Below, one piece after another: positions 3,954-58,740 of a stretch of 64,000 nucleotides of DNA; positions within the stretch are counted from its first letter, which is position 1, and every line of letters begins with the position of its first letter. Made by a program: the position numbers and the translations under genes. Source of the DNA: Mustelus asterias (lineage: Eukaryota); assembly GCF_964213995.1 (NCBI RefSeq), contig NC_135808.1, positions 4,216,001 through 4,280,000 of the forward strand. The letters run 5' to 3'. A model generated the notes under the pieces. That model ran no database searches and was not told the DNA's origin. It saw only the letters and a program-made list of their open reading frames with translations.

Positions 3954-3980
3954 CCTGGCTTGCCTTGTGCTTCTCATTTT
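3954..3980 (-). CDS. BTN gene B 27-nt juxtamembrane micro-exon (ENEKHKASQ)
   Basis: ttccactttcag|AAAATGAGAAG...CCAGG|gtaagt, phase 1-1, resembles gene A exon HLEKDLCKT. Confidence 0.75.
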
Positions 3981-4140
3981 CTGAAAGTGGAAGAAAGGAA
4001 GAACGGTGTGAGAAATAGCGCTAAACTCTGAGGAGGAATGTCCGTCTCGGCACAGTGCCCCCCCGTCCAAATCCTTCCCAATCGCTCATCAAAATAAAAC
4101 CAGTCACTGGCGTCAAGTAGGAAAGGGAGCAGCCAATCAG

Positions 4141-6140
4141 CGCACAGCAAGATCCCACAGGGCGCAGCGAGATCCCACAGTACACGGCGAGATCCCACAG
4201 TGCACGGCGAGATCCCACAGGGCACGGCGAGATCCCACAGTGCACGGCGAGATCCCACAGTGCACGGCGAGATCCCACAGTGCACGGCGAGATCCCACAG
4301 GGCGCAGCGAGATCCCACAGTACACGGCGAGATCCCACAGGGCGCAGCGAGATCCCACAGTACACGGCGAGATCCCACAGTGCACGGCGAGATCCCACAG
4401 GGCACGGCGAGATCCCACAGTGCACGGCGAGATCCCACAGTGCACGGCGAGATCCCACAGTGCACGGCGAGATCCCACAGGGCGCAGCGAGATCCCACAG
4501 TACACGGCGAGATCCCACAGGGCGCAGCGAGATCCCACAGTACACGGCGAGATCCCACAGGGCGCAGCGAGATCCCACAGGGCACGGCGAGATCCCACAG
4601 GGCGCAGCGAGATCCCACAGGGCACGGCGAGATCCCACAGGGCGCAGCGAGATCCCACAGTACACGGCGAGATCCCACAGTGCACGGCGAGATCCCACAG
4701 GGCACGGCGAGATCCCACAGGGCACGGCGAGATCCCACAGTGCACGGCGAGATCCCACAGTGCACGGCGAGATCCCACAGTGCACGGCGAGATCCCACAG
4801 GGCGCAGCGAGATCCCACAGTACACGGCGAGATCCCACAGGGCGCAGCGAGATCCCACAGTACACGGCGAGATCCCACAGTGCACAGCAAGATCCCACAG
4901 GGCACGGCGAGATCCCACAGGGCGCAGCGAGATCCCACAGGGCACGGCGAGATCCCACAGGGCGCAGCGAGATCCCACAGGGCACGGCGAGATCCCACAG
5001 GGCGCAGCGAGATCCCACAGTACGCGGCGAGATCCCACAGTGCACGGCGAGATCCCACAGTGCACGGCGAGATCCCACAGTGCACGGCGAGATCCCACAG
5101 GGCACGGCGAGATCCCACAGTGCACGGCGAGATCCCACAGTGCACGGCGAGATCCCACAGTGCACGGCGAGATCCCACAGTACACAGCAAGCTCCCACAG
5201 TACACAGCAAGCTCCCACAGTACACAGCAAGCTCCCACAGTACACAGCAAGCTCCCACAGTACACAGCAAGCTCCCACAGTACACAGCAAGCTCCCACAG
5301 TACACAGCGAGATCCCACAGTACACAGCGAGATCCCACAGTACACAGCGAGATCCCACAGTACACAGCGAGATCCCACAGTACACAGCAAGATCCCACAG
5401 TACACAGCGAGATCCCACAGTACACAGCGAGATCCCACAGTACACAGCGAGATCCCACAGTACACAGCGAGATCCCACAGTACACAGCGAGATCCCACAG
5501 TACACAGCAAGCTCCCACAGTACACAGCAAGCTCCCACAGTACACAGCAAGCTCCCACAGTACACAGCAAGCTCCCACAGTACACAGCAAGCTCCCACAG
5601 TACACAGCAAGCTCCCACAGTACACAGCAAGATCCCACAGTACACAGCAAGATCCCACAGTACACAGCAAGATCCCACAGTACACAGCAAGCTCCCACAG
5701 TACACAGCAAGCTCCCACAGTACACAGCAAGCTCCCACAGTACACAGCAAGCTCCCACAGTACACAGCAAGCTCCCACAGTACACAGCAAGCTCCCACAG
5801 TACACAGCAAGATCCCACAGTACACAGCAAGATCCCACAGTACACAGCAAGATCCCACAGTACACAGCAAGATCCCACAGTACACAGCAAGATCCCACAG
5901 TACACAGCAAGATCCCACAGTACACAGCAAGATCCCACAGTACACAGCAAGATCCCACAGTACACAGCAAGATCCCACAGTACACAGCAAGATCCCACAG
6001 TACACAGCAAGATCCCACAGTACACAGCAAGATCCCACAGTACACAGCAAGATCCCACAGTACACAGCAAGATCCCACAGTACACAGCAAGATCCCACAG
6101 TACACAGCAAGATCCCACAGTACACAGCAAGATCCCACAC
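4141..6140. repeat. 20-bp minisatellite, about 100 units (tacacagcaagatcccacag and variants)
   Basis: Exact 20-bp period over 2 kb with blocks of variant units. Confidence 0.98.
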
Positions 6141-6399
6141 TCAGTGCCCACAGACAGACAGACTGGGCCTCACTGACAGGCTGGGCCTCACTGACAGACA
6201 GACAGACTGGGCCTCACTGACAGACAGACTGGGCCCCGCAGTGTTAACAGCCTCCTGCCACTTTACACCTCCAATCCCAGCTCCCCATCCTGTCCAACAC
6301 TGATCTCTCCCATTCCAGAGCAGTTTATTCACTCAAAGTGCTCGGAATCTTTGGAACTCTCTTCCCCAGCGGATGTGGATCTGCCGTCTCGGAGTTATT

Positions 6400-6880
6400 T
6401 ACGGGATGTGGGTGTCGCTGGCTCGACCAGCATTTATTGCCCATCCCTAATTGCCCCTTGAGAAGGTGGTGGTGAGCTGCCTTCTTGAACCCGCTGCAGT
6501 CCCTGAGGTGTAGGAACACCCACAGTGCTGTTAGGGAGGGAATTCCAGGAATTTGACCCAGCGACAGTGAAGGAACGGCCGATATGTTTCCAAGTCAGGA
6601 CGGCGAGTGACTTGGAGGGGAACCTCCAGGTGGTGGGGGTGTTCCCAGGTAGCTTCTGCCCTTGTCCTTCTCGATCGAAGTATTAGTATATTTGGAAGGT
6701 GCTGCCTAAGGAACCGTGGTGAGTTCCTGCAGTGCATCTTGTAGATGGTTTACGCGGCTGCCTCTGTGCGCGGTGGTGGAGGGAGCGAATGTTTGTGGAA
6801 GGGGCAGCAATCAAGTGGGCTGCTTTGTCCTGGATGGTGTTGAGCTCCTTGCGTCTTGTTGGAGCTGCTCCCCTCCAGGC
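6400..6880 (-). mobile_element. 3' fragment of a second LINE family (also 19195-19990 -, 42150-43020 +, 44790-44890)
   Basis: Shared tail aagaaggcagctcaccaccaccttctcaaggg...gggcaataaat; the 42150 copy shows decayed RT C-terminal coding (QDLDNIQAWADK, YKTQVRSVMDYSPLAW). Confidence 0.7.
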
Positions 6881-7262
6881 GAGTGCATTCGAGACAGAGC
6901 TCGATAGTATTTTGATTTCCCGGATAATACGGGAGAAGTGCAGTTGAGAAGATCTGCCATGATAGTATTGAATGGCAGAGCAGGTTCAAGGGGCTGAATG
7001 GCCTCTTGTTCCTATTTCTGATGAACACCATTGGCTTCAAAATGGATTGGGAAATCCTGAGGGCATGAGCGCTGCCACAGAAATGCAAATCTTTCTGAAT
7101 CTCCCTGGAGACATCCAGACGGAGGTAGTTCAGTGTTGTATCGCGAGCCTCCAGATGACAGTATCGCAGACAGTCTTCTCTCTAACACGACAACTGTACT
7201 CCCACATCACCGGCTTCTCATTCCCCCCAATATCTAACTCTCCGTTACTAATGGTTACTCAC

Positions 7263-7289
7263 CGATTTCACCCCTCAGCACATGATTTT
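7263..7289 (-). CDS. BTN gene B 27-nt micro-exon (ENHVLRGEI)
   Basis: tcctgttacag|AAAATCAT...AATCG|gtgagt, phase 1-1. Confidence 0.8.
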
Positions 7290-7714
7290 CTGTAACAGGA
7301 CAAAAAAACAGCATCAAATCAGCAGAGACCCTTCACCCCTCAAACCATCTCCTATCCCAAACCCACACCACTGGTCCTCATCCAAATGGCAGGAACCGTC
7401 TGCCACTGTCTCAGTCTGACAGTGAAACAGAGCAGCGCCTCGGGGGGGAAGGAAAATAAACCACAGAACAAGGGGGCAAGAGGGGGCAGTGAGGAGAGGG
7501 GGGATATTGAAACAGTAACGCTGCACTGTGTGACAGAGGGAAGGATAGAGGGTCTCTGGGGCTCCGGATGGAGGGTGAGCACGGTCAGGTACAGAGGGAG
7601 GGTCTCGGGACAGATACGATATCATTCAGGGTCAGACTGTGAATTCCTCCCAACTGGGAAATCACAGATTGTGACTTCAGTCCGTTTCCCGCAGTCTCAT
7701 TAAACATCACTTAC

Positions 7715-7741
7715 CAAGCAAGCCTGCAGATTTCTCTAAAC
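7715..7741 (-). CDS. BTN gene B 27-nt micro-exon (GLEKSAGLL)
   Basis: tttctttacag|GTTTAGAG...CTTG|gtaagt, phase 1-1. Confidence 0.8.
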
Positions 7742-8000: not shown

Positions 8001-8120
8001 CTTGGATCTTACTCTGTAATTTTCGATAGAACCAAAACATGAGACAGACTGCAGCAAGTACCAGGAAGAACAGGATCCAGAAGGCAACCATCCACCCAGA
8101 AGCATGGGGAAAGAAGACAT
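8001..8120 (-). CDS. BTN gene B transmembrane exon (DVFFPHASGWMVAFWILFFLVLAAVCLMFWFYRKLQSKIQ)
   Basis: 120-nt phase-1 exon with AG/GT, BTN-type FFP..S.W motif and a hydrophobic helix; same length as the gene A TM exon; absent from the ORF track. Confidence 0.88.
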
Positions 8121-8154
8121 CTGAATCGACAGAAAAAAGCAGTTAGCCGCTTGA

Positions 8155-11100: not shown

Positions 11101-11630
11101 TTCCCCCCTCACTCACTGTCCCGGAAATGGTTCCCCCCTCACTCACTGTCCCGGAACCGGTTCCCCCCGCACTCACTGTCCCGGAACCGGTTCCCCCCTC
11201 ACTCACTGTCCCGGAAATGGTTCCCCCCTCACTCACTGTCCCGGAACCGGTTCCCCCCGCACTCACTGTCCCGGAACCGGTTCCCCCCTCACTCACTGTC
11301 CCGGAACCGGTTCCCCCCTCACTCACTGTCCTGGAACCGGTTCCCCCCTCACTCACCGTCCCGGAACCGGTTCCCCCCTCACTCACTGTCCCGGAACCGG
11401 TTCCCCCCTCACTCACTGTCCCGGAACCGGTTCCCCCCTCACTCACCGTCCCGGAACCGGTTCCCCCCTCACTCACTGTCCCGGAACCGGTTCCCCCCTC
11501 ACTCACTGTCCCGGAACCGGTTCCCCCCTCACTCACTGTCCCGGAACCGGTTCCCCCCTCACTCACTGTCCCGGAACCGGTTCCCCCCTCACTCACTGTC
11601 CCGGAACCGGTTCCCCCCGCACTCACTGCC
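8155..11630. repeat. About 30-bp minisatellite (ctcactcactgtcccggaaccggttccccc), about 115 units
   Basis: Direct tandem period; most units contain the palindrome GGAACCGGTTCC. Confidence 0.98.
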
Positions 11631-11739: not shown

Positions 11740-12024
11740 CTGCAATCTGGATGTGGGCCTCTTGTGTCGCCTCCAGGTCTTTGTTGACAATGACACACGT
11801 GTACTCGTTCCTGGAGCGTTGGGGGACCTCGATGAAGCTCTGAACCGCCATCAGTCCCTCCGGGTCCACCTGGTACTGGGTCTGTGGCTGGGCTGTAACA
11901 TTCTCTCCCTGCCCGTTTACCCAGCGGACAGGCGGCTGCGGGAACCAGCGCTCTGATCTGCAGCCCAGTCTGACGCCATCTCTTGTGTAACCCTCCATCC
12001 CGATCCGGGGCTGCTGGCCTGTAC
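11740..12024 (-). CDS. BTN gene B IgC (B7-type) exon
   Basis: GTGQQPRIGMEGY...VRLGCRSERWFPQPPVRW...YTCVIVN...IQIA; 285 nt; tgttgcag| and |gtcagt. Confidence 0.93.
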
Positions 12025-17189: not shown

Positions 17190-17265
17190 CGTGAAAGATC
17201 CAAACAAGAATCTGAAGCAGGAGAAATATTTTGGAAATCCGGATATCCAGCAGGATACGATGCAT
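17190..17265 (-). CDS. BTN gene B signal-peptide exon (MHRILLDIRISKIFLLLQILVWIFH)
   Basis: acaATG, hydrophobic leader, phase-1 donor G|gtaaga in frame with the IgV exon; exon begins at 17274 after an AG. Confidence 0.8.
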
Positions 17266-34040: not shown

Positions 34041-34067
34041 CTGCGGCACTGATGACTCGTTCAGCAG
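34041..34067 (-). CDS. BTN gene A 27-nt pre-B30.2 micro-exon (AAERVISAA)
   Basis: tgtgtttcag|CTGCTGAA...GCAG|gtgaga. Confidence 0.85.
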
Positions 34068-34819
34068 CTGAAACACAAGACACAACGATGAAGAATCTTC
34101 AAAGTATTTCCCAGAGCGTTACAGTCCAGAGAGAGGCCCTTCAGCCCATCACTCCTGAATCCACCACAACACTGCTCAATAAATATCCTGACGCACCTTC
34201 TTTTATTGTGTTCAACCTCAGTATCACACAGGGCAGAATATTCTGGAATATGGCAATGGCCATTTCCCTTCCACACACGTTGAGGTAGGATTTTTGATTT
34301 CCTAGAGTGGGAATGTGACTGAAGGGAACAGTTGAACCTTGTGGGGGTTTGGGCTTGTTGGATCAATGGCATTTTCCTTTCGGTAACTTCTGACTTTATA
34401 AGTGTTACAATTGAGGACTCTGTGTCCAGGTACATTCAGGACATTGTGCAACACTCCAGTGGAAGCTAGTGTTCAAACCCAGAGAATCATAGAATCCCAA
34501 CACTGCAGAAGGAGGCCACCCACCACAATCCCACCCAGGGACTATCCCCACAACCCCACATAATTACCCTCTTAGTCCCCCTGACACTAAGGGCCAATTT
34601 AGCATGGTCAATCCCCCTAACCTGCACATCTTTCGGACTGTAGGAGGAAACCAGAGCACCCAGAGGAAGCACATGCAGACACGGGAGAACATGCAGACTC
34701 CGCACAGACAGTGACCCGAGGTCGGAATTGAACCCGGGTCCCTGACTAACTCAATCACGTCTCCAATGAATGGTAGGGCAGTGTGATCACCCACTGGTCT
34801 GTCTCGCCTTACTCTGTAC

Positions 34820-34927
34820 TCTGAAGTCTCACAACACCAGGTTAAAGTCCAACAGGTTTATTTGGTAGCAAAAGCCACGAGCTTTCGGAGCGCTTGCTGC
34901 TCCTTCGTCAGGTGAGTGAGAGTTCTT
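34820..34927 (-). mobile_element. Penelope pLTR fragment with a hammerhead (34876-34914), sense to BTN gene A
   Basis: Minus strand: CAC-CTGACGA-A-GGAGC(agcaagc)GCTCC-GAAA-GC-TC-GTG, then AATAAA (34862-34857). Confidence 0.8.
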
Positions 34928-34929
34928 AC

Positions 34930-34977
34930 TCTGACAGTAGCGGGAGCCTGTCTCTGAGGGGTAGATGCTATAAGACA
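34930..34977 (-). CDS. Candidate optional 48-nt exon of BTN gene A (VSYSIYPSETGSRYCQ)
   Basis: Strong acceptor ttctctgtctctgtctcccacag|, donor A|gtaaga, phase 1-1, no stop. Confidence 0.35.
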
Positions 34978-35053
34978 CTGTGGGAGACAGAGACAGAGAA
35001 AGTGAGGCAGTCAGACCAGCATTGCACCAACCCAGTGAGAATTAGGACCTTAC

Positions 35054-35080
35054 CTGTCTTGCACAGATCCTTTTCCAGAT
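35054..35080 (-). CDS. BTN gene A 27-nt micro-exon (HLEKDLCKT)
   Basis: ttttcattacag|ATCTGG...ACAG|gtaagg. Confidence 0.82.
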
Positions 35081-35885
35081 CTGTAATGAAAATAAGGCAC
35101 CATTATTAATGAAAGACCAGGTCACCGTGACATATCCAATGTTCTACTTGACCAGAACAAGCCCAACATCCCTCCTGTCAAAGGTCATCCAATCAGAAAG
35201 AACCTGGCTGCCTCCTTCCACTTTCCCTAACACAGTGTGGTCTCAACACAGCTCTTACTGATCCCCTCATCCTTCCCGTCCTCACTGTGAGACTCCAATA
35301 CTCCAATCATCTCCTGCCCTAGTCTCCAAGTAAACACGAGAGAGAGGGCGGGGGGGATGAGAGAGAGGGGGTTGGGGAGGTGCTGAGGGAGAGAGGAGGG
35401 GGGGGCTGAGAGAGAGAGGGAATGAGAGAGGGGGAGAGAGAATGAAAGAGAGGGAAAGGGAATGAGAGAGAGGGAATGAAAGAGAGAGGGAATGAGAGAG
35501 AGACAGAGGGAGAGGGAATGAAGGGGAGAGGGGCTGAGAGGGAGGGACAGAGAGGCATACAGAGAGTGAGTGAGAAAGAGAGACAAAATGAGGGACACCC
35601 ACAGGACAGAGACAGGCCATTCAGCCCGACAGGTCTTTCTCTGCTTTCCTCAAAAGATAAAAACATCTCTTCCGCCTCTGTCGTATTAAATCTTTCCGTC
35701 ATTTGGAAAATGGCTCTCAGGTCACTCCTCAGTCTCCCCGTTCAGGATTTGCTGATAGACAAATCCTCTCAGCTCTCCATTTTTAATTCCCAAGTCCAAA
35801 TCGAGACAGAAACAACAAAACACTAATCTGTATTCATATAGGCCCTTCCATTGGCTAAAATATCCCTGGGGTAGAAACAGAGAGT

Positions 35886-35916
<31 letters not shown>

Positions 35917-35953
35917 GAAAGTTCCTTCTCACATTAGACTGAGAGTAACTTAC

Positions 35954-35974
35954 GTAAATTAGACTTGATGTTAT
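35954..35974 (-). CDS. BTN gene A 21-nt heptad micro-exon (DNIKSNL)
   Basis: tttttcctcag|ATAAC...TTAC|gtaagt. Confidence 0.8.
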
Positions 35975-36119
35975 CTGAGGAAAAACAAAATTAAAAAGGT
36001 AAATTAGTTGGTGCTGGTGGAGAAATAGTGTTCATGTTTGTTTGTACAAATGTGCAGAAACTGGATCAAGTGGAGTTTTCACTCGACAGGGAGGGAAAGA
36101 AAGATCTTTTACAAAGACC

Positions 36120-36780
36120 CACCTCGGGGCCTGGGGCTGACCTCGGGCCCTCGAACTGAGCTCAGCCTTGGACCAGGCCTCGGGCCTGGGGCTGAACCCG
36201 GGGCCTGGGGCTCACCTCGGGGCCTGGGACTCACCTCGGGGCCTGGGGCTGAGTTCAGCCTTGGACCAGGCCTCGGGGGCCTGGAGCTGACCTCGGGGCT
36301 TGGGGCTCACTTCGGGCCTGCAGCTAATTTCGGGGCCTGGGGCTGACCTCGGGGCTTGGGGCTCACTTCGGGCCTGGAGCTAATTTCGGGGCCTGGGGCT
36401 GACCTCGGGGCCTGGGGCTCACCTCGGGCCTGGAGCTAATTTCGGGGCCTGGGGCTGACCTCGGGGCCTGGAGCTAATTTCGGGGCCTGGGGCTGACCTC
36501 GGAGCCTGGGGCTCACCTCGGGGCCTGGAGCTAATTTCGGGGCCTGGGGCTGACCTCGGGGCCTGGATTTGAGTTCAGCCTTGGACCAGGCTTTCGGCCT
36601 GGAGCTGAGTTCTATCCTGGACCTACAGCTGACCTTGGGCCTGGAGCCGACCTCGAGGCTTGGAGCTGAGTTCAGTCCTGGCTCAAGCCTGGGCTTGGAT
36701 CTGAGCTTAGGTCCATCAGCCCAGGATTTGAATTTGGTCCCCTGAACTTGGGCCTGAACCGGAATCAAGCCTGGGACTGA
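36120..36780. repeat. Degenerate 18-19-bp G-rich repeat (ggggcctggggctgacctc / ggagctaatttc)
   Basis: Tandem variant units. Confidence 0.85.
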
Positions 36781-37114
36781 GCTGATAGAGAGTAACAGGC
36801 AAGCCTCATAACTGTCCTCAATTCTCTGCAAATGCAAGTTGTTCAGAACCCTCTATGGCTGTGGCCATTACAAAGGTCACTGTGCATCAGTCACGTCCTG
36901 GGAGGTGAGTGCATTAGGAGGCATAGGGGGGAGAGGCCGTCAGCCTCAGGATCCTGCTCTGTTCAGCAACAGTGACCCGCACGCTTACTGTCAGATGGCC
37001 GAGGATTATTCCGGGATTTGGGATTAGGAATCAAGAAAGAGGACATGTCCGCCTGCTGATGTTGATACAAATTTGCTCAGCTATCCAGGCAGATGTTCGA
37101 ATTGGAAAACTCAC

Positions 37115-37135
37115 CAACAGCAACTTGGAGCATGG
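37115..37135 (-). CDS. BTN gene A 21-nt heptad micro-exon (SMLQVAV)
   Basis: cttttctttcag|CCATG...GTTG|gtgagt. Confidence 0.8.
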
Positions 37136-37965
37136 CTGAAAGAAAAGCAGAAAAGAAATGTCAGCCGAGAGCAGAGTAACAGACTGGGAATCTTGGCCTA
37201 GCAGCTCTTAGTTAGCGCAAAGCCTATTGGTCAATTAAATCAGTACTGACACCTCAAACTCCCACCAATCCCTTCACGGCAAGCTGTTCCCTTGTTGGCC
37301 ATCTACAAGTATTAATTTAGGTCAGTATTTATTGCCCATCCCCAGTTGCCCTTGTTCAGAGGGCAGTTGAGAGTCAATGACCTCGCTGTGGCTCCGGAGT
37401 CACGTGTAGGCCAGACCGGGTAAGGACGGCAGATTTCCTTCCCTAAAGGACATCAGTCTTCCAGATGGGATTCAAACCCGTGTCCCCAGAGCATTATCCT
37501 GGGATTCTGATTACCATCCGAATACCACTAGGCCAGCGCCTCCCCGACACAGAATACTCTGGAACATAGTGGTCTGTCCATCATTGGAGATATCCCAAAA
37601 TGGCCTGAGAATCAACCCGGCATTTCCCTGGTGGCGGGGAGAAGGGGGGGGCTGGATTTTGGTGGGGGTCCGTGCATGCGTGGTTTATAGGATAGTTGGC
37701 CATTTAAATCCCCTGTAACAAGTTAGAGCAAGGGCTGTATCTTACATGCCCTTGCTCGGTGTGTTTCCTCCCAGGGTGAGGTCGGCATATGAAACAGGGT
37801 GTGTGCCCACCCTACCGCCACCCCCCCCCCCCCCCCCCCCACCCCCAAGCTCACCCCCAAATCCAGCAGCCCACCCACCTTGTCGAAATTGGTAACCAAG
37901 TGTCAATTAGGCCAAGTCCACCAAGTCAAACGACTCGGATACTCCACACTCCAACACATAGGACG

Positions 37966-39577
37966 AGGTACTGGGGTTCTTGAGGAACATTAAGGTAGAC
38001 AAGTCCCCAGGGCCTGATGGGATATACCCCAAAATACTGAGAGAAGCAAGGGAGGAAATTGCTGGGGCCTTGAGAGAAATCTTTGAATCTTCACTGGCTA
38101 CAGGGAAGGTCCCAGAGGATTGGAGAATAGCCAATGTTGTTCCTTTGTTTAAGAAGGGTAGCAAGAATGATCCAGGTAATTACAGGCCGGTGAGCCTTAC
38201 GCCAGTGGTAGAGAAATTATTGGAGAGGATTCTTCGAGACAGGATTTATTCCCACTTGGAAATAAGTGGACGTATCAGTGAGAGGCAACATGGTTTTATG
38301 AAGGGGAGGTCATGTCCCATTAACTTGATCGAGTTTTTCGAGGAAGTGACGAAGATGATTGATGAGGGTAGGGCAGTGGATGTTGTCTACATGGACTTCA
38401 GTAAGGCCTTTGACAAGGTCCCTCATGGCAGACTGGTGCAGAAGGTGAAGTCGCACGGGATCAGAGGTGAGCTGGCTACGTGGATACAAAACTGGCTCGG
38501 TCAAAGAAGACAGAGGGTAGCAGTGGAAGGATGCGTTTCTGAATGGAGGGCTGTGACAAGTGGTGTTCCTCAGGGATCAATGCTGGGACCTTTGCTGTTT
38601 GTAATATATATAAATGATTTGGAGGAAAATGTAACTGGTTTGATTAGTAAGTTTGTAGACGACACAAAGGTTGGTGGATTTGCAGACAGTGATGAGGACC
38701 ATCAGAGGATACAGCAGGATATAAATCAGTTGGAGACATGGGCGGAGAGGTGGCAGATGGAGTTTAATCTGAACAAATGTGAGGTAATGCATTTTGGAAG
38801 GTCTAATACAGATAGGAAATATACAGTAAATAGCAGAACCCTTTAGTGTATTGATAGGCAAAGGGATCTGGGTGTACAGGTACACAGGTCACTGAAATTG
38901 GCAATGTAGGTGGAGAAGGTAGTCAAGAAGGCATACGGCATGCTTGCCTTTATTCGCCAGGGCATTGAGTTTAAAAATTGGCAAGTCATGTTGCAGCTTT
39001 ATAGAACCTTAGTTCAGGCCGCATTTGGAATATAGTGTTCAATTCTGGTCGCCACACTACCAGAAGGATATAGAGGCTTTGGAGAGAGTACAGAAAAGAT
39101 TTACCAGGATGTTGCCTGGTATGGAGGGCATCAGCTATGAGGAGAGGTTGGAGAAACTTAGTTTGTTCTCACTGGAACGACGGAGGTTGAGGGGAGACCT
39201 GATAGAAGCCTATAAGATTATGAGATGCATGGACAGAGTGGATAGTCAGAAGCTTTTACCCAGGGTGGAAGAGTCAATTACTAGGGGGCACAGGTTTAAG
39301 GTGCGAGGGGCAAGGTTTAAAGGAGATGTACGAGGCAGATTTTCTTTTTTACACAGAGGGTGGTGGGTGCCTGGAACTTGTTGCCAGGGGAGGTAGTGGA
39401 AGCAGATATGATAGTGACTTTTAAGGGGCGTCTTGACAAATACATGAATAGGATGGGAATAGAAGGATATGGTCCCTGGAAGGGTAGGGGGTTTTAGTTA
39501 AGTTGGGTAGCATGGTTGGTGCAGGCTTGGTGGGCCGAAGGGCCTGTTCCTGTGCTGTAATTCTCTTTGTTCTTTGT
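37966..39577 (+). mobile_element. 5'-truncated CR1 LINE (RT region)
   Basis: KSPGPDG, YRPVSLT, MDFSKAFDKV, PQGS and FVDD, with stops and frameshifts downstream. Confidence 0.95.
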
Positions 39578-40299
39578 AAACCGGGAATGGGGAATGTGGG
39601 GTAAGAGGGGAGAGAGTCGGTGGGATGTTGGTTTGGTTTTATTGGTGGTTCTTATTGATCTGAATGCAATGCCAGGGTAGAGAGGCAACACCCGCGCCCA
39701 GTCCGCCCCTGTACCCATTCCGGGGTCACCAGTACCCATTCCGGGGTCACCTGTACCCATTCCGGGGTCACCTGTACCCATTCCGGGGTCACCTGTACCA
39801 ACTCGTTTGGCAACCAGAGTCCCTCCCTCACACCTCCCCCAACCACCCCCTCCTCCCCTCCCCACCCCTCCACCACCCACTCCAGCTTCCCCCACCCCAC
39901 CCCCCTCCTCCCCTCCCTCACCCCCCCAATCACACGCTCCGGCTTCCCCTACCCCCCACCTACAACCTGCTCCGGCCTCCCCCACCCCTCTCCCCTTCCA
40001 AACCCCCCACACCCACCACCCGCTCCGGCCTCCCATCGCCCACCCGCCCCCCCCCCCCTCCCCCCCACCCCCGAAAGGAGAACCTGAAATTCCCAGCTGC
40101 CAGTGGCCATTTTGAAAAGTGGGATTTGCCGATCCGGGAAAGTTCCCGACTCTGCAGCCAGCCCAGGGATGAGGATCTGGGCCCGGATCCCAGTCACTCT
40201 GGAACACAGGGAATGCCGCAGCAACACTGCCCCGGATGCCTTATGGCGTTCCAATCACTTTCTAAACTGGATACTTTGGAACATTCCACATAGACAATG

Positions 40300-41100
40300 A
40301 GAAATAGGAACAGGAGTAGGCCATTCAGCCCCTCAAGCCTGCTCCGCCATTCAGTAGGATCATGGCTGATCCGACTTTCCTCACGTCCTTTTCCTTGCCC
40401 TTTCCTCATAATACTTGACTCTCTTAATGATCAAGAATCTCTCTATCTCAGCCTTATGTACTCACAAAGACTCTGTCCCCACAGCTCTCTGAGGCACAGA
40501 GTTACAAAGACTCACAACCCTCCGAGAGAAGAAATTCCTCCTTATCTCAGTCTTAAGTTGGTGCCCCCCTTTATTCTGAGACGATGCCCTCTGGTCCGAG
40601 ACTCTCCCATGAGGGGGAACATCCTCTCAGCATTTACCCTGTCAGGCTCCTTAATAATCCTCGATGTTTCATTGAGATTACATCTCATTCTTCTCAATTC
40701 CAATGAGCAGAGTCCCAACCTGTTCAACCTTTCCTCATTGGACAATCCCTCCATGTTGGGTGTAATCATAGTGAACTTTCTCTGAAATGCCTCCAATGAA
40801 ATAATTTCCTCAAACAAGGGGAAACTCAACACAGTGCTCCAGATGTGGCTCACCGGTACCTTACACAATTGCAGCAAGATTTCCCTACTCTTATACTCCA
40901 ACCCCCTTGAAATAAGGGCCAACATTCCATGAGCCTTCCTGATTACCTGCTGCCGCTGTGTGCTCGCTTCCTGTGTTTTGTGCATAAGTATCCTCAAGTC
41001 CCTTTCTGCAGTTTTTCTCCATGTGAATAATACTCTGTTCTTTCCTTCTCCCTTCCAACAGGAACAGCTTCACACATTCAACTTCATTTGCCAACTTACT
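40300..41100 (-). mobile_element. Decayed CR1 3' fragment
   Basis: QQVIRKAHGMLALISRGLEYK, ERLNRLGL..LE.RRMR. Confidence 0.85.
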
Positions 41101-41177
41101 TAACATCTCTCATCCGATGCCCAATGTCTGACACTGAATGTTCTGGATCATTCCACATTTACAGATCGTGGAGCTAT

Positions 41178-41858
41178 CAGTCAACGGGGACGAAGTAGAA
41201 AGGGTCGAGAGCTTTAAGTTTTTAGGTGTCCAGATCACCAACAACCTGTCCTGGTCCCCCCCATGCCGACACTATAGTTAAGAAAGCCCACCAACGCCTC
41301 TACTTTCTCAGAAGACTAAGGAAATTTGGCATGTCAGCTATGATTCTCACCAACTTTTACAGATGCACCATAGAAAGCATTCTTTCTGGTTGTATCGCAG
41401 CTTGGTCTGGCTCCTGCTCTGCCCAAGACCGCAAGGAACTACAAAAGGTCGGGAATGTAGCCCAATCCATCGCCCAAACCAGTCTCCCATCCATTGACTC
41501 TGTCTACACTTCCCGCTGCCTCGGAAAAGCAGCCAGCATAATTAAGGAACCCACGCACCTGGACATTCTCTCTTCCACCTTCTTCCATCGGGAAAAAGAT
41601 ACAAAAGTCTGAGGTCACGTACCAACCGACTCAAGAACAGCTTCTTCCCTGCTGCTATCAGACTTTTGAATGGACCTACCTCACATTAAATTGATCTTTC
41701 TCTCCACTCAGGCTATAACCAAATGCTGCACTCTCTCCTTTCCTTCTCTATGAACGGTATGCTTTGTCTGTACAGCGCGCAAGAAATAATATTTTTCACT
41801 GAATGCTAATACACGCGACAATAATAAATCAAATCAAATCAAATCAAATCAAATCAAA
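41178..41858 (+). mobile_element. Rex1/Babar-type LINE 3' fragment with (AAATC)n tail (second copy 49205-49692)
   Basis: VKKAHQRLYFLRRLRKFGMS...FYRCTIESILSGCI, RLKNSFFPAAIRLLN. Confidence 0.8.
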
Positions 41859-41867
41859 GACTCTTAC

Positions 41868-41894
41868 ATTGCTTGTCCATTACAGCCTTGAATT
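41868..41894 (-). CDS. BTN gene A 27-nt micro-exon (EFKAVMDKQ)
   Basis: tttttcttgtag|AATTC...CAAT|gtaaga. Confidence 0.8.
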
Positions 41895-43620
41895 CTACAA
41901 GAAAAAGAACAAGAGTCAATGGACAGCCATTCTTAACAATAACTTGCATTTACATAGCGCCTGTAACAACATTCAACATCCCGAGACATTTCGCCAGAGT
42001 GTTATGTGGAGGCCAAGTCACTGATTGTATGTAAGAAGGAAACAGGTCAATTTGGAGGCTCTATAGGTGTGAAGGGGTACAGATGGGGGTGGGGAAGGGA
42101 GCACGGGTGCATCTCACTGACACAGGATCAGCCATGGTCACGTTCACTGATGATTTTGCACAATGTTCAGCACCATTCGCGACTCCTCAGATACTGAAGC
42201 AGTTCATGTCCAAACGCAGCAAGATCTGGACAATATCCAGGCTTGGGCTGACAAGTAGCAAGTAACATTCACGCCACACAAGTGCCAGGCAATGCCCACC
42301 TCCAACAAGAGAGGATCGAACCATTAGTCCCAGGCATTACCATCACTGAATCCCCCACTATCAACATCCCGGGGGTTACAATTGACCAGAAACTGAACTG
42401 GACTTGCATATAAATACTGCGACTACCAGAGCAGGTCGATGTAGGAATCCTGTAGTTAGTTACTCAGCTCCCCTCCCCCTAACCCCCTCCCAACCCCCCA
42501 AAGCCTGTCCACCATCTACAAGACACAAGTCAGGAGTGTGATGGACTACTCCCCACTTGCCTGGATGGGTGCAGCTCCAACAACACTCAAGAAGCTCGAC
42601 ACCATCCAGGACAAAGCAGCCCCGCTTGATTGGCACCACATCCACAAACATTCTCTCCCTCCACCACTGACGCTCAGTAGCAGCAGTGTGTACCATCTAC
42701 AAGATGCACTGCAGCAACTCACCAAGGATCCTTAGACAGCATCTTCCAAACCCACAAGCACTACCATCCAGAAGGACACGGGCAGCAGATAGCTGGGAAC
42801 ACCCCCACCTGGAGGTTCCCCTCTCCAAGTCAGTCATCATCCTTCACTGTCGCTGGGTCAAAATCCTGGAATTTCCTTCCTAACAGCACTGTGGGTGGGC
42901 CTACACCTCAGGGACTGCAACGGGTTCAAGAAGGCAGCTCACCACCACCTTCTCAAGGGACGACTGGGAATGGGCAATAAATACTGGTCTGGCCAGTGAC
43001 GCCCACATCCCGTCAATGAATAAAAAGAATGGTGGAGCAGGATTGAAGGGCCGAAAGGACTGCTCCTGCTTCTATTTTTCTATGTTTCTGGTTTATCAAA
43101 TAAAGTTAGACAGTCGGCAACCTAAGGATCGATTTCCCAAAGGCTGGATTATATTTCGGATTTCCAGCATCTGCAGTATTTTACCTCTATTTGAGGTGGA
43201 GGATTTGCGGGGACGGGAGTTGGTCGCTGTCAGTGAGCGCACAGCTGACAGCAGAACTGGGGTTAACCAGTTAACTAGTGGTATTAACTATTAAGGAGAC
43301 TCGGTGAACCCGCTCACTAACATTTCCCGAGGTCTGGAACATACAGTCAGCCTCCAGCTACACAAAATCCTTGTTTACAGCTTTCAGTGATAAAGGAGCC
43401 TGGACTCCCACTGAGAGGCCTGGAGACAGGGCTGAGCTTTACGGTCTTGGGCAGGACGATGACACCTCAGACAGTGCGGCATTCCCTCAGCACGGCCCTC
43501 GGAGTGCGTCAACCTTAATCATTCTGCTCACGTGTCTGGAACGGGATTTGCATGTACAACCTTCAAGGTGACAGTGCTCCCCATTGGGCTGTAGCTAGCA
43601 CTCGAATACAAGTGAGGGAG

Positions 43621-44082
43621 GGCAGGTAAAGGTGGCAGGGGCAGAGGGTAAAGGTGGCAGGGGCAGAGGGTAAAGGTGGCAGGGGCAGAGGGTAAAGGTG
43701 GCAGGGGCAGAGGGTAAAGGTGGCAGGGGCAGAGGGTAAAGGTGGCAGGGGCAGAGGGTAAAGGTGGCAGGGGCAGAGGGTAAAGGTGGCAGGGGCAGAG
43801 GGTAAAGGTGGCAGGGGCAGAGGGTAAAGGTGGCAGGGGCAGAGGGTAAAGGTGGCAGGGGCAGAGGGTAAAGGTGGCAGGGGCAGAGGGTAAAGGTGGC
43901 AGGGGCAGAGGGTAAAGGTGGCAGGGGCAGAGGGTAAAGGTGGCAGGGGCAGAGGGTAAAGGTGGCAGGGGCAGAGGGTAAAGGTGGCAGGGGCAGAGGG
44001 TAAAGGTGGCAGGGGCAGAGGGTAAAGGTGGCAGGGGCAGAGGGTAAAGGTGGCAGGGGCAGAGGGTAAAGGTGGCAGGGGC
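43621..44082. repeat. Near-perfect 21-bp minisatellite (gggtaaaggtggcaggggcag a), about 22 units
   Basis: Invariant tandem units. Confidence 0.97.
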
Positions 44083-44107
44083 AATATGTAAATTGAGTGT
44101 TACTTAC

Positions 44108-44134
44108 CTTTCAATGATGGCCGTTTGCGAAGCT
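44108..44134 (-). CDS. BTN gene A 27-nt micro-exon (ELRKRPSLK)
   Basis: ttctctttcag|AGCTT...AAAG|gtaagt. Confidence 0.85.
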
Positions 44135-44182
44135 CTGAAAGAGAACAGAGAGGTTTACACACATGTTGCACTGTTTGATCAC

Positions 44183-45596: not shown

Positions 45597-45716
45597 CTTC
45601 CATATTTTTCCACTCTCTGTACTGATAGAATGCCGCTGCGCCCAATATTGCGATGAATAAAATGAATAACAAGATGAATGCGGTGAAGAATTTCGACATC
45701 CGGGGGAAGAACTCAT
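45597..45716 (-). CDS. BTN gene A transmembrane exon (DEFFPRMSKFFTAFILLFILFIAILGAAAFYQYREWKNME)
   Basis: 120 nt, ctgttcccag| and |gtgagg, hydrophobic helix. Confidence 0.92.
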
Positions 45717-45959: not shown

Positions 45960-46350
45960 TTGGCCACTCAAATAAACTAACTCAAATTATCTCAGGGACA
46001 AACTAAAAAGGGCAGCTCCCAAAAGGAAACTTAAAACATCAAATTAAAATGCGATTTAAGGGCTCAACAATGCAACCCAGTCCCTGCGGTGCCCAGCGGG
46101 CACGGAAGGCGCTAACGGTGCCCTCAGATACCGCATGCTCCCTCCCCGGCTGCGAATATAGCCGCAGTAGAAGGGCAGACAGTCGGGTCAGATTATCCCC
46201 TCGGTCGCCGGCTGCCTGGACTTCTAGATGGCAAGCTTTGCCAGGGCCACCAATTGGATCTGAAATCAGGGAGCTCATACTCCAATAGGCCAACCCCAAT
46301 GGCCTGATTGAAGCCATTACACAGTCTCTCCCCAGATTGAGCCCTGCTCA
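45960..46350 (-). mobile_element. L1/Tx1-like LINE 3' remnant (short second copy at about 13790-13960 +)
   Basis: REHAVSEGTVSAFRARWAPQGLGCIVEPLNRILI* is shared by both copies; clade assignment is from recollection. Confidence 0.5.
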
Positions 46351-48646: not shown

Positions 48647-48925
48647 CGGGAATGTTCAGGCTGCTCTCCTGGGAACGTTTCAGGGTCACACTGCTCACCA
48701 GGCAGCTAAAGGTGTTGGTGGAGCCGCTGGTCACCTCGACGGTGCTGGAAATGCTGAAGAGGCCGTCAATGCCCTTCACCGTCCTGGTCCTGGCTTTCTC
48801 CGTCATGCCATCCTCACCTACCCAGCGCAACTCGGGAGGCGGGTACCAGCGGGAGGAATTACACTGGAGGCCGATCCCCTCCGCGTGGTAACCGTCCAAT
48901 TGTAACGCAGGACGCTGGCCGAAAC
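48647..48925 (-). CDS. BTN gene A IgC (B7-type) exon
   Basis: SFGQRPALQLDGYHAEGIGLQCNSSRWYPPPELRW...DGLFSISSTV...FSCLV; 279 nt, phase 1-1. Confidence 0.94.
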
Positions 48926-52700: not shown

Positions 52701-53210
52701 TCACTGCCCTACACTGGCGACGAGTCCCGTTCCACGCACACTCTCTCTGCTCACTGCCCTACACTGGCAACGAGTCCCATTCCCCGCTCACACTCTGTGT
52801 CACTGCCCTGCACTGGCGACGGGTTCCTTTCCCACTCGCTCTCTGTGCTCCCTGCCCTACACTGGTGACGAGTCCCATTCCCCGCACACTCTCTTTGCTC
52901 ACTGCCCTACACTAACGCCGAGTCCCGTTCCCCACTCACTCTCTCTGCTCACTATCCTACACTGGCGACGAGTCCATTCCCGCTCACTCTCTCTGCTTAC
53001 TGCCCTACACTGGCGATGATTCCCGTGCCCCGCTCCCTCTCTCTGCTCACTGCCCTGTGCTGGTGATGAGTCCCGTTGCCCGCTCACTCTCTGCTCGCTG
53101 CCCTACACTGGCGACGAGTCCTGTTACCCGCTCACTCTCTCTGCTCACTGCCCTACACTGGCGACGAGTCCTGTTACCCGCTCACTCTCTGCTCACTGAC
53201 CTGCACTGGT
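49720..53210. repeat. About 50-bp minisatellite (gagtcccgttccccgctcactctctctgctcactgccctacactggcgac), about 70 units
   Basis: Tandem period of 48-50 with increasing divergence rightwards. Confidence 0.97.
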
Positions 53211-53264
53211 TCCCGATCAATTGAGGTCCTGATTTGAAAACTCTCACCCCTCCGTGGCTGGTCA

Positions 53265-55356: not shown

Positions 55357-55713
55357 TGGCGACAGTCAGCTTCACGGACGTCTGCTCGATGGCACTCTTT
55401 TGCTCGACCATGCAGAGATATTCGCCTTCATCGTCCAGCCTCACATCCTTGACTTTGAGGGAGACATTGCCCTGGTTAAAGGCCGTCTCAAAGAACTCAG
55501 TCCTGTTCATGTAGGCCTCAGCCTGTTGCTTGTCCACACCCGACCCAAAGGTGTACTTGCGAATGGGGATGTGACGATCTAAATCACTGCGAACCCACTG
55601 CAACTCCATGCCCGCCACGGGCTTCTCTGGAATCAGCTGGCATTCCAACACTGCCACCCCACCAATCATGGCAATGACAGGGTCTTTGGGTCCCGTCACC
55701 TTGAACACGGTAT
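55357..55713 (-). CDS. BTN gene A IgV exon
   Basis: DTVFKVTGPKDPVIAMIGGVAVLECQL...MELQW...QAEAYMNRTEFF...GNVSLKVKDVRLDDEGEYLCMV; 357 nt; |gtaagt. Confidence 0.95.
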
Positions 55714-56164
55714 CTGGAACTGGACGAGAGGGAAATCGCCGGTGTTAAATCCATTCACTGAGAACAGCAATACAACAACATCCGCAAAGAAGCTGCATTA
55801 ATATAGCTCCACTCATGACCACAGGAAATCCCAAATAGCCAATCGTATGGACACTGTTATAATGAGGGAATGTGTCAGCCAATTGAGATGGACCAAGATC
55901 ACTGGGCTCCTCCAATCCGCTGCCTCTTCTCATTCCCCCCCCTCCCCCGATTTCCATCATTCCACCAATTAGCGGCCATGCCTTCCATTGGCGAGGCCGG
56001 AATTCCCCGGATTCCCCTTCCTAAACCTCTCCACCCTCTCTCTCCTTATTCAAACTGCTCCTTAAACCTTTCCTCTTTGTCTAGGATTTCCATTTCCCAT
56101 CTCTGTGTGGCACAGGGTCCAATTCCGATCGATGGGAATCGCAAGAAGGTGGGGAGGAGGAGGA

Positions 56165-57590
56165 GGAGGCCATTCAGCCCATCAACTCTGCTCTGCCATT
56201 CACTGAAATCATGACTCATAGAGGTTTACAGCGTGGAAACAGGCACTTCGGCCCAACTTATCCTCTTTTTAAACCACTAAGCTAATCCCAATTGCCCGCG
56301 CTTCGCCCACATCCCTCTATACCCATCTTACCCATGTTTTTTAAAAGACAAAATTGTACCCGCCTCCACTACCATCTCTCGCAGCTTGTTCCAGACACTC
56401 ACCACCCTCTGTGTGAAAAAATTTCTGATGCGAAAATCCTCAACTCCACTTACCTGCCTTAGCCACATAACCCTCGACTCCATAATTGATTAAAAATCGG
56501 ACTATCTCAGCTTTGAACATATGAGCCAGCTCTATAGCCCTCTGTGGTAAAGAATTCTTTAGATTCACTACGCCTGAGAGGAAATTTCTCCTCATCTCTG
56601 TCTTAAATGGGCAACCCCTGATTCTGAGAATATGCTGTTTGGTCCTGGACTCTCCCACAAGGGGAAACAACCTCTCAGTGTCTACACTGTCAACCCCCCT
56701 GAGAATCCGATATGTATCAATAAGGTCACCTCTCATTTTCCTAAACTCCAGTGAGTACAAGCTCAGCCCACTCAACCTCTTCTCCATACCCGGGTTCAAC
56801 CTAGCGAACCTTCTCTGGACTGCCTCCAAAGCCAGTATATCTTTCCTTGGGTAAGGGGACCAAAACTGTTCACAGTATTCCCTTCCTGCCCAAGATCCCC
56901 GTCTGGAATGGATTCCACTACATCCCAAATTCAGAGGATTTAAAGGTAGACAATAATCCCAGCGAAGGAGTTTCTCTTCTCATTGGGTATCTCAGTGTGT
57001 TTTACCCCATTAAACACGTGATGGTCAGCCATTTACTCCCGCCTCCACGTTGAAAGGTTGTGGGTTCAAATCCCCACTCCAAAGTCACGGGGGCATAAAT
57101 GTAGAGCAACACTCTGCGCACAGCACTGAGGGAGTGCTGCACTGTCAGGCGTGTAGCTTTCGGGTGGGATATTTGGGTGTCTGTCCTCTTGGTGTCACTC
57201 TGCTATTACTTCCGTGAAAAGTTCTCCCAGATCATCATTAATCCAACAAGCAATACAAAGAACAAAGAACAGTACAGCACAGGAACAGGCCCTTCGACCC
57301 ACCAAGCCTGCACCAATCACATTGTCCTATCTAGACCAACCGCCTGTATCCCTCTATTCCCCGCCTGTTCATGTCTCTATCCAGATAAGTCTTAAATGTC
57401 GCTAATGTGTCTGCCTCAATCACCTCACTTAGCAGTGCATTCCAGGCCCCCACCACCCTCGATGTAAAAAATCTTCCCCCCAGCACATCTCTACTGAACT
57501 GTCCCCCCTTACCTTGAACTTGTGCCCCCTTGTAATTGTCATTTCTGCCCTGGGAAAAAGCTTCCAACTGTTCACCTTATCTATACCTCG
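56165..57590 (-). mobile_element. Cluster of CR1 3' fragments and a Deu-type SINE remnant
   Basis: EYCEQFWSPY.RKDILALE, RGDLIDTY; several CR1 tails. Confidence 0.75.
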
Positions 57591-57818
57591 AAACAGATCA
57601 TCATGCCATCATCTCATGGCGGTTTGTGGGATCTTGCTGTGTGAGTATTGGCTGCCACATTTCCCAGATTGCAACAGTGACTCTGGAGTATTTCGGGCGT
57701 CCTAAGTTTTCCCAAGGCCTTTCAGTAAGTGAAAATTAGCAATGGAGGGAGATTCAAACAGTTCTAACGTTAGTTAGTTGTACCGAGGGACTTTGCACTC
57801 GGCCTAAGCTGTGAGCAG

Positions 57819-58580
57819 TGTCACATGTGTGAGACTTAATAAGACAATATTCTTTAAAATATTCATCCTTTAATACAAAATAAAATATTCATCTTTGAGA
57901 GGAAATTGTGACCTCCTCTAAAACAAGGCCGGAGACAAACCCACAGGACCTGGCTGCCATGGGGACATGGGGCCCAGATCAAAACTTCTCAAAAATAAGG
58001 TGCAAGTTTTAACGCCTAGACACAGAGTAGGAAACAGGTGTCCTTGCTACTGTACAGACGTACAGTCAGTCAGACAAAGAGCTTGGGAAAGAAGACTGAC
58101 AGCAGGTGCTGGAAAAAAAGGGGCTGTTTTGGTGTTAACTGCCAAGCAGAGTGCTGGTGAATTCAGAACCCCTGTTACAAGGGACCATGCATTCTGAAGG
58201 CTTGCAAGGAACTGCCAGAGAACACCTCACTACTGAAAGTGCATTTGATGATGGTCAGAGATTGAATGAAGGAGGGAACTCTGGAAGATTCACCCTGAGA
58301 GAAGAGATCCTGCTAAAGCTGGGAGGAGCTCGGAACTTAAAGGACAAGATATTTCTGCAAGATTGCAATGTAATGTATAAACGTGGCATGAAATATTTGG
58401 TTCTATTAAGAAGTTAATGGGAATACAATCTCTGTAGTTTAGTGTATTAGTTGCCTGCTCGGTAATTTTTAGTCAATGTTGATTTTAATGTGTTTGTTAT
58501 AGTAAAAGTCTTAAAATGTGAAATCTTGCTCTGTGATTCTTTGCCCAGGAAATTTGCTTCCCTCCACGGGGATTGTAACA
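57819..58580. mobile_element. Probable solo LTR
   Basis: TGTCACA...TGTAACA termini, flanks GCAG/GTAG (4-bp TSD with 1 mismatch), internal AGTAAA. Confidence 0.45.
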
Positions 58581-58670
58581 GTAGACAACTGTCCTGTTGA
58601 AAAGGCGGCCTCATGCGTACATCAATATTGAGTGAGGGGGCGGAGGTATCTCAGCAGTGCTGTCTCTCAC

Positions 58671-58740
58671 CTGTCAGTGCAGAATGGATCCTGAGGAGGA
58701 GAATCAGAGACAGGGCCCAGGGCCCAATCCTCCAGGACAT
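58671..58740 (-). CDS. BTN gene A signal-peptide exon (MSWRIGPWALSLILLLRIHSALT)
   Basis: aggATG, hydrophobic leader, G|gtgaga phase-1 donor in frame with IgV; acceptor tatctttcag| at 58775. Confidence 0.85.

What the first reader, a model, noticed from the sequence alone, without database searches (positions are those of the whole stretch)
3954..58740. Tandem pair of deeply diverged butyrophilin genes in a probable cartilaginous fish
Seen: two head-to-tail genes share the same SP/IgV/IgC/120-nt TM/micro-exon architecture but have visibly low protein identity. Known: mammalian BTN/BTNL proteins work as heteromeric pairs encoded by neighbouring genes (BTN2A1-BTN3A, BTNL3-BTNL8, Btnl1-Btnl6) that select gamma-delta T cells, and sharks are in the oldest lineage with gamma-delta TCRs. 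Inference: a candidate ancestral BTN heterodimer system for shark gamma-delta T cells.
Basis: partly seen in the sequence, partly recalled or inferred. Interest (0 to 1): 0.7.

Follow-up and report, generated by a model that had tools for sequence, protein, structure and literature searches.

The report
Conserved shark butyrophilin gene trio
These are two intact, spliced shark butyrophilin genes (immune surface proteins) that belong to a three-gene run kept in sharks and rays on the MHC chromosome; one likely pairs with the third gene just outside the window rather than with its window neighbour, and a role in gamma-delta T cells is plausible but untested.

Summary
Observation confirmed. Genes A (498 aa) and B (560 aa; its last 10 exons, with the B30.2, lie past the window) are intact butyrophilins, 34-37% identical, and match NCBI models. 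Spliced contigs of both occur in 4 of 4 runs laid. They are not an isolated pair: a third gene, C, lies upstream of A, and 8 clear BTN loci sit on the contig that holds all 140 MHC-I matches. A, B and C each form a strongly supported orthologue clade across sharks and rays, with neighbour order kept. The A+B heterodimer is the weak link. The IgC-to-B30.2 linker is 92 aa in A and in most C orthologues, but 132-150 in B. A fold of A with B and C gave weak support (0.48), and 0.28 with C replaced. B keeps the BTN2A1 Vgamma-binding positions (R/K/F/E); A does not. Neither has the phosphoantigen pocket. Shark BTNs and their MHC linkage are published (PMC12841164); I found no paper on this trio. New members of a known family with a testable hypothesis.

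The parts
58671..58740 (-). Gene A exon 1, signal peptide (ATG at 58740)
   Evidence: equals NCBI P0001 tail
55357..55719 (-). Gene A exon 2, IgV
   Evidence: Pfam V-set 1.3e-13; best single-domain PDB hits BTNL2, MOG, BTN3A
48647..48925 (-). Gene A exon 3, BTN-type IgC
   Evidence: PF22705 5.1e-15; spliced to the TM exon in 4 of 4 runs
45597..45716 (-). Gene A exon 4, 120-nt transmembrane exon
   Evidence: joint 45716-48647
34041..44134 (-). Gene A six micro-exons for the cytoplasmic stalk: 44134-44108, 41894-41868, 37135-37115, 35974-35954, 35080-35054, 34067-34041
   Evidence: GT-AG, phase 1, in frame; all present in P0001
31576..32090 (-). Gene A last exon, B30.2 (PRY-SPRY) and stop
   Evidence: PF13765 + PF00622; best PDB hit BTN3A1 4.8e-35
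17190..17265 (-). Gene B exon 1, signal peptide (ATG at 17265)
   Evidence: equals NCBI P0011
15018..15377 (-). Gene B exon 2, IgV, with R/K/F/E at the positions of BTN2A1 R65/R124/Y126/E135
   Evidence: V-set 2e-10; alignment to 8dfw; contig pieces ending at the exon edges in 4 of 4 runs
11740..12024 (-). Gene B exon 3, BTN-type IgC
   Evidence: PF22705 1.8e-19
8001..8120 (-). Gene B exon 4, 120-nt transmembrane exon
3954..7741 (-). Gene B first three of twelve 27-nt stalk micro-exons: 7741-7715, 7289-7263, 3980-3954. The other nine and the B30.2 exon lie beyond the window start (G000:C8:4215799 down to 4199333). Gene C lies beyond the window end (C8:4339230 down to about 4315360)

Best explanation
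A and B are intact, spliced butyrophilin genes of a C-A-B run kept in sharks and rays on the MHC chromosome; their proteins likely form membrane-anchored coiled-coil dimers, with A likely paired to the length-matched C and B likely dimerising on its own. Shown: gene models, domains, splicing, orthology, gene order, linker lengths and residue patterns. Inferred from human BTNs: dimers form through IgC plus a continuous TM/juxtamembrane coiled coil, the B30.2 reads a cytosolic cue, and the IgV binds a lymphocyte receptor. Inferred here: B (and less exactly C) offers a BTN2A1-like CFG face that could bind a germline Vgamma, while A supplies a strongly conserved B30.2 for a ligand other than a phosphoantigen. 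Odds by step: BTN identity about 0.97; A prefers C to B about 0.55; any of the three binds a gamma-delta TCR about 0.3.
For: Full architecture and exact match to NCBI models. Spliced contigs in 4 of 4 runs (3 samples, 3 studies). Orthologue clades with sharks and rays: A 8 rows 100/99, B 6 rows 100/99, C 4 rows 100/98, repeated in the B30.2 tree. Order kept: fused NCBI models read A-B in Scyliorhinus canicula, Narcine and Amblyraja, C-A in Hemiscyllium and Stegostoma, and C-A then a B-like IgC in Chiloscyllium plagiosum; skate B and A have consecutive accessions on one 116-kb contig. IgC-to-B30.2 linker: 92 aa in 12 of 14 A units (one 94 by domain edge, one truncated draft), 92 in 5 of 6 C units, against 150 in 5, 132 in 3 and 114 in 1 of 9 B units. 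A-C stalks align in register at 25% identity, A-B at 12-14%. A+C are sisters at 93/90. Human BTN dimers form continuous TM-JM coiled coils of about 120 A (10.1101/2024.10.02.616253, passages). Complex prediction of A with B and C: weak support, score 0.48, best control 0.28 (C replaced); runs agree in at least 66% of contacts, partner pLDDT at least 74; the mark was reached by 51 of 78 solved complexes and 2 of 108 mismatches, but at 0.60 or under by only 5 of the 78 and by all 4 mismatches that passed. R/K/(F,Y)/E pattern in 8 of 9 B units, 0 of 14 A units, 13 of 70 units overall. MHC-I: 140 of 140 matches on C8, nearest 0.54 Mb from B; class II alpha 2 of 2 on C8.
Against: No binding, trafficking or cell-type data. 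The A-C length match may reflect only shared ancestry as sister duplicates. In this genome C's linker is 83 aa (its first micro-exon was not found; a 200-nt N run lies in that intron), its B30.2 has a 5-residue deletion, NCBI fuses its ectodomain to A, and its expression was not tested. The fold is weak, used C from another shark, had three chains, ignored my alignments, gave no interface, and solved BTN dimers make a pass from memory likely. BTN3A1 pairs with BTN3A2, which is shorter and lacks a B30.2, so unequal stalks do not forbid an A-B coil. A+B as sisters is not rejected (p-AU 0.08 and 0.15). A+C support (93/90) is below the starred mark, and weak in the B30.2 tree (90/39). The R and E of the CFG pattern are common in BTNs. 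Squamates keep BTNs without gamma-delta TCRs (PMC12841164).
Confidence: 0.45

Rival explanations
1. One reading: A and B form an obligate heterodimer, like BTNL3-BTNL8, that selects shark gamma-delta T cells.
For: Adjacent and intact, adjacency kept in sharks and rays; both spliced in the same 4 of 4 bulk runs; B has the BTN2A1-like CFG pattern; sharks have a TRG locus with five V genes (PMC7349638, passages); an A+B clade is not rejected.
Against: B's linker is 40-58 residues (about 60-87 A of helix) longer than A's in all full models, while C matches A. Stalk likeness is A-C 25% against A-B 12-14%. At least six other BTN loci on the contig are possible partners. Tissue of the runs is unknown.
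Confidence: 0.17
2. [quoted passage not shown]
For: BTNs persist in squamates that lack gamma-delta T cells (PMC12841164). Alpaca BTN3 is thought to work as a homodimer (PMC11969061 passage). In B the B30.2 is the best-kept domain among sharks (72-84% against 60-66% for IgV in the full models). No phosphoantigen pocket.
Against: A and C hold the same 92-aa linker across sharks and rays while other paralogues range from 53 to 150; weak fold support for A when C is present (0.48 against best control 0.28).
Confidence: 0.35
3. B is a pseudogene, or the genes are B7-family members (VTCN1, HHLA2, CD276) rather than BTNs.
For: CD276 tops the PDB lists by whole-chain E-value; B seems to lack a B30.2 inside the window.
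Against: The CD276 score adds two domains (42-51 bits each), below BTNL2/MOG/BTN2A1 (69-79 bits). B has a B30.2 16 kb past the window and is spliced. The genome's VTCN1/CD276-like genes lie on other contigs and fall apart from the BTNs at 98/95.
Confidence: 0.01

Closest known systems
Human BTN3A1-BTN3A2/3A3 heterodimer plus BTN2A1 homodimer (PDB 8zhr, 8za9 and others)
   Same: SP-IgV-IgC-TM-heptad-B30.2 layout; clustered on the MHC chromosome; an A orthologue aligns over its whole length to BTN3A3/BTN3A1 (E about 1e-78) and BTN2A1; B keeps R/K/F/E at BTN2A1's four Vgamma9-binding positions.
   Different: About 35-45% identity only; no orthology shown; six phosphoantigen-pocket residues kept 0 of 6 in A and 1 of 6 in B; B's stalk is about 58 residues longer than A's, whereas BTN2A1 and BTN3A differ by about 10; B has no C-terminal tail after the B30.2.
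BTNL3-BTNL8 and mouse Btnl1-Btnl6 heteromers
   Same: Neighbouring diverged paralogues with the same domain layout; both chains are hit by A and B domains (22kk).
   Different: Co-dependent trafficking, gut-epithelial expression and Vgamma binding are not tested here; human BTNL3/8 lie outside the MHC (PMC12841164).
Cartilaginous-fish butyrophilins of Marenco, Olive and Pontarotti 2026 (PMC12841164) and NCBI 'butyrophilin subfamily N member-like' models
   Same: BTN genes in sharks and rays, on the MHC class I chromosome, with class-specific duplications.
   Different: The paper's text names no orthologue groups, trio, stalk lengths or pairing (its Figure S2 tree is a picture I could not read). 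NCBI fuses C with A or A with B in several species.
Chicken BG genes and the TRIM/BG region
   Same: Micro-exon heptad tails; position beside a large B30.2/TRIM cluster near the MHC (PMC8813856, passages).
   Different: BG has a single IgV, no IgC and no B30.2.

Membership tests
Butyrophilin (BTN/BTNL) | N-terminal B7-type IgV | tested here: met
   V-set in A and B; best single-domain PDB hits BTNL2, MOG, BTN2A1, BTN3A
Butyrophilin (BTN/BTNL) | BTN-type IgC2 | tested here: met
   PF22705 in both
Butyrophilin (BTN/BTNL) | Single TM followed by a heptad stalk built from micro-exons | tested here: met
   120-nt hydrophobic exon, then 6 (A) or 12 (B) micro-exons; coiled coil itself inferred from sequence
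Butyrophilin (BTN/BTNL) | C-terminal B30.2 (PRY-SPRY) | tested here: met
   best PDB hits BTN3A1 for A and BTN2A2 for B, TRIM21 close behind
Butyrophilin (BTN/BTNL) | Linkage to the MHC (typical, not universal) | tested here: met
   140 of 140 class I and 2 of 2 class II alpha matches on the same contig; class II 30 Mb away
Heteromeric gamma-delta-selecting BTN pair (A with B) | Both genes intact and co-expressed in one cell type | tested here: inconclusive
   Intact; spliced in the same 4 of 4 bulk runs, tissue unknown, runs chosen by A
Heteromeric gamma-delta-selecting BTN pair (A with B) | Physical heterodimer with co-dependent surface trafficking | not testable with these tools
   Needs cells; stalk lengths differ by 40-58 aa; the fold did not settle A-B (see Tried and rejected)
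Heteromeric gamma-delta-selecting BTN pair (A with B) | IgV binds germline Vgamma | not testable with these tools
   No shark TCR sequence was fetched; residue pattern only
Heteromeric gamma-delta-selecting BTN pair (A with B) | Orthology of A and B to the two mammalian partner lineages | tested here: inconclusive
   A+tetrapods p-AU 0.013, B+tetrapods 0.0014, but A+all bony not rejected on IgV+IgC (0.34); human BTN2/3/L3/L8 absent from the trees
BTN3A1-type phosphoantigen sensor | His351, His378, Lys393, Arg412, Arg418, Arg469 in the B30.2 (list from PMC5829056) | tested here: not met
   A has R, D, T, E, P, S; B has V, D, N, G, R, W (read from the BTN3A3 alignment)
BTN2A1-type Vgamma ligand | R65, R124, Y126, E135 on the CFG face (PMC7083227) | tested here: inconclusive
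   B has R, K, F, E (two identical, two conservative; 8 of 9 B units); A has Q, L, M, Q (0 of 14); pattern also in 2 H units, one other ray unit, a caecilian and an otter protein
B7 family without B30.2 (VTCN1, HHLA2, CD276) | No B30.2; IgV groups with B7-H3/H4 | tested here: not met
   B30.2 present; own-genome VTCN1/CD276-like genes form the outgroup at 98/95; no verified HHLA2 sequence was included

The most novel reading that the evidence does not exclude
Sharks and rays have kept a three-gene butyrophilin sensor: a C-A heterodimer with matched stalks plus a long-stalked B homodimer whose IgV binds germline Vgamma. It parallels human BTN3A1-3A2 plus BTN2A1 but arose from separate duplications and reads a cytosolic ligand other than phosphoantigen, which would date BTN-Vgamma recognition to the first jawed vertebrates.
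Probability: 0.12. Interest if true: 0.8.

Novelty: new member of a known kind. Interest (0 to 1): 0.42.

Why it matters
Whether BTN selection of gamma-delta T cells is as old as the gamma-delta TCR is open; BTN-TCR binding has been shown only in a few mammals (PMC12841164). Stable one-to-one orthologues A, B and C across sharks and rays, and a shark TRG locus with only five V genes, give a small test grid: three BTNs, their pairings, five Vgamma. The result also shows that public annotations fuse these neighbours and hide gene C.

Tried and rejected
A with B in the fold: the control run in which C was replaced scored 0.28, under the mark of 0.34; this is no evidence against A-B binding. No run holder was on record as RNA; I rely only on spliced joints and exon-edge pieces in contigs, not on depth. 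The class II beta search found nothing and is uninformative. 'A is BTN3-like and B is BTN2-like', suggested by best B30.2 hits and NCBI names, was not accepted: scores for BTN2, BTN3 and TRIM21 lie within about 30 bits and the trees give no such pairing. C's first micro-exon was sought twice without success. Deep branching among paralogues is unresolved on IgV+IgC; chondrichthyan monophyly is neither shown nor rejected (p-AU 0.45); the B+bony test was skipped for time. Rows left out: 17 of 70 units (mostly near-duplicates) from the, 72 trees, to which 2 own-genome and 4 outgroup rows (71) or 15 own B30.2 exons (72) were added; one search used 41 units; one search dropped one long branch. The shark MHC paper PMC10751288 has no mention of butyrophilin, BTN, TRIM or B30.2 in its main text (term search only; supplements not read). 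Sandstrom 2014 was not held. My second note gave D for the Arg418 position of A; the alignment gives P.
Full report
Gene models. The minus strand holds two multi-exon genes. With splice sites snapped to AG/GT, gene A has 11 exons and 498 codons, and gene B has 17 exons and 560 codons, without internal stops and all introns in phase 1. B runs past the window start: nine micro-exons and the B30.2 exon lie in G000:C8:4215799-4199333. Pfam gives V-set, BTN-type C2 (PF22705), PRY and SPRY for both. B equals NCBI P0011 letter for letter; A equals the last 498 residues of P0001, a model that fuses another gene's ectodomain in front. NCBI lists both under Mustelus asterias as butyrophilin-like. Domain identity between A and B is 34-37%, far above shuffles.

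Family, not B7. Single-domain PDB hits are BTNL2, MOG, BTN2A1 and BTN3A; CD276 ranks first only by adding two weaker domains. B30.2 hits are BTN3A1 for A and BTN2A2 for B, with TRIM21 close. The genome's VTCN1/CD276-like genes lie on other contigs and separate from all BTNs at 98/95.

Expression. Four contig sets (3 samples, 3 studies; found with A's last exon; not on record as RNA) all hold a contig joining A's IgC and TM exons exactly at my boundaries. The same four hold contigs whose match covers B's IgV exon (three end at both edges, one covers 339 of 360 bases); two are 2.3 kb long. This shows both are spliced in the same bulk samples; tissue and cell type are unknown.

Neighbourhood. The top 8 of 33 IgV matches and the top 8 of 14 IgC matches lie on C8: at 1.54, 3.29, 3.49, 3.59, 4.23 (B), 4.27 (A), 4.34 (C) and 19.83 Mb, plus a divergent IgV at 25.95 Mb. 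About 130 of the 150 listed B30.2 matches (hand count) are on C8. All 140 MHC class I matches are on C8, the nearest 0.54 Mb from B and most at 21-43 Mb; class II alpha lies at 34.3 and 34.5 Mb. So this is the MHC chromosome, but the cluster is about 30 Mb from class II. Gene C lies upstream of A on the same strand with an open model of about 487 aa; one expected micro-exon was not found.

Conservation. A, B and C each form a clade with both sharks and rays, at 100/99, 100/99 and 100/98 on IgV+IgC (57 rows), and again on B30.2 (66 rows) and on the concatenation (41 rows). Fused public models and accession order show A-B in a catshark, an electric ray and skates, and C-A in carpet sharks. The shark-ray split is some 250-300 million years old (recalled). 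In the concatenated tree A+C (93/90) and B+H (92/88) are sisters, below the starred mark, and 13 bony-vertebrate BTNs lie on one side of a branch (97/95). AU tests reject A+tetrapods (0.013) and B+tetrapods (0.0014) but not A+B (0.08); on IgV+IgC with an outgroup none of four tested groupings was rejected. No human BTN2, BTN3, BTNL3 or BTNL8 was available for the trees. The trio is therefore old within elasmobranchs, but not shown to be the ancestor of a mammalian pair.

Who pairs with whom. Human BTN dimers join through IgC and a continuous TM-juxtamembrane coiled coil, and the juxtamembrane part sets partner choice. The IgC-to-B30.2 linker is 92 residues in 12 of 14 A units and 5 of 6 C units, but 150, 132 or 114 in 9 B units; other paralogues have 53-72 or 108. 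A and C share an RP motif after the TM and lack the EW motif that precedes the B30.2 in B; their stalks align in register at 25% against 12-14% for A-B. A single fold of A (IgC to stalk) with B and with C from Chiloscyllium punctatum gave weak support: 0.48, best control 0.28 with C replaced, 0.00 with A replaced; contacts agree at least 66%, pLDDT at least 74. The mark was reached by 51 of 78 solved complexes and 2 of 108 mismatches, but at 0.60 or under by only 5 of the 78 and all 4 passing mismatches; like complexes are solved, so this may be memory. Against A-C: C here is 9 residues shorter, has a B30.2 deletion and untested expression, and BTN3A2 shows that a partner may be short.

Binding surfaces. 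The four BTN2A1 residues needed for Vgamma9 binding (PMC7083227) map to R, K, F, E in B. The pattern holds in 8 of 9 B units, 0 of 14 A units and 13 of 70 units in all; 4 of 6 C units have R, K, F, D. The six phosphoantigen-pocket residues of BTN3A1 (PMC5829056) are kept 0 of 6 in A and 1 of 6 in B, so phosphoantigen sensing by that pocket is unlikely.

What is known. PMC12841164 (main text read, parts 1-3 of 4; supplement text read, tree figure not visible) reports BTNs in all jawed vertebrates, on the MHC-I chromosome in two sharks and a ray, with class-specific duplications, and their retention in squamates without gamma-delta TCRs. PMC11788884 and PMC13262535 (passages) place BTN origin in gnathostomes. 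Other papers seen: PMC11969061 (passages, sections 10 and 13), PMC5829056, PMC7083227, PMC10665462, PMC8813856, PMC7349638 and 10.1101/2024.10.02.616253 (passages); PMC10751288 (term search, no hits). Six searches showed no paper on this trio or on pairing of shark BTNs; most hits were seen as listings only, and subscription papers and unread supplements may hold it. The scan's index returned two notes on other micro-exon B30.2 genes 10-13 Mb away.

Verdict. The added facts are the conserved C-A-B trio, the A-C stalk match and the split of surface features between B and A. The A-B heterodimer for gamma-delta T cells remains possible but is not the best-supported pairing. New member of a known kind; interest 0.42.

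Noticed in passing
window 1-3820 (+), inside intron 7 of gene B: LINE-type retrotransposon with an esterase ORF1 (GDSL, window 1-717) and an open 1011-codon endonuclease-RT ORF2 (693-3728), so a young copy.
   Followed up: partly
G000:C8:4339230-4315360 (L039-L041): Gene C has no protein of its own among the hits: NCBI P0001 joins its ectodomain to gene A. Similar fusions occur in P0002, P0003, P0004, P0031, P0298 and P0312.
   Followed up: yes
G000:C8 about 1.54-1.66 Mb (L045, L005, L010, L023; P0073): The B30.2 of the 1.54-Mb BTN model groups at 100/99 with nearby free-standing B30.2 exons, not with other shark BTNs: domain exchange or a mis-joined model.
   Followed up: no
G000:C8 0.7-32 Mb: Very large B30.2 exon cluster (about 130 listed matches) on the MHC chromosome, recalling the TRIM region beside tetrapod MHCs.
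   Followed up: no
G000:C8:3662448-3662708: An isolated MHC class I alpha-2-like exon among the BTN loci, 18 Mb from the nearest class I cluster.
   Followed up: no
G000:C8:25954592-25954924 (L053): Divergent BTN-like IgV; the closest catshark model has four IgV, one IgC and a B30.2 and is named hemicentin-1-like.
   Followed up: partly
window 4143-6139, 8158-11628, 49719-53209 and others: Long minisatellite arrays (periods 20, 30, 50) fill the introns.
   Followed up: no
window 31576-32090: A's B30.2 has motifs invariant from sharks to rays (RLF, KPDWD, KRG, PFFSPWGS), which suggests a conserved ligand site unlike BTN3A1's.
   Followed up: partly
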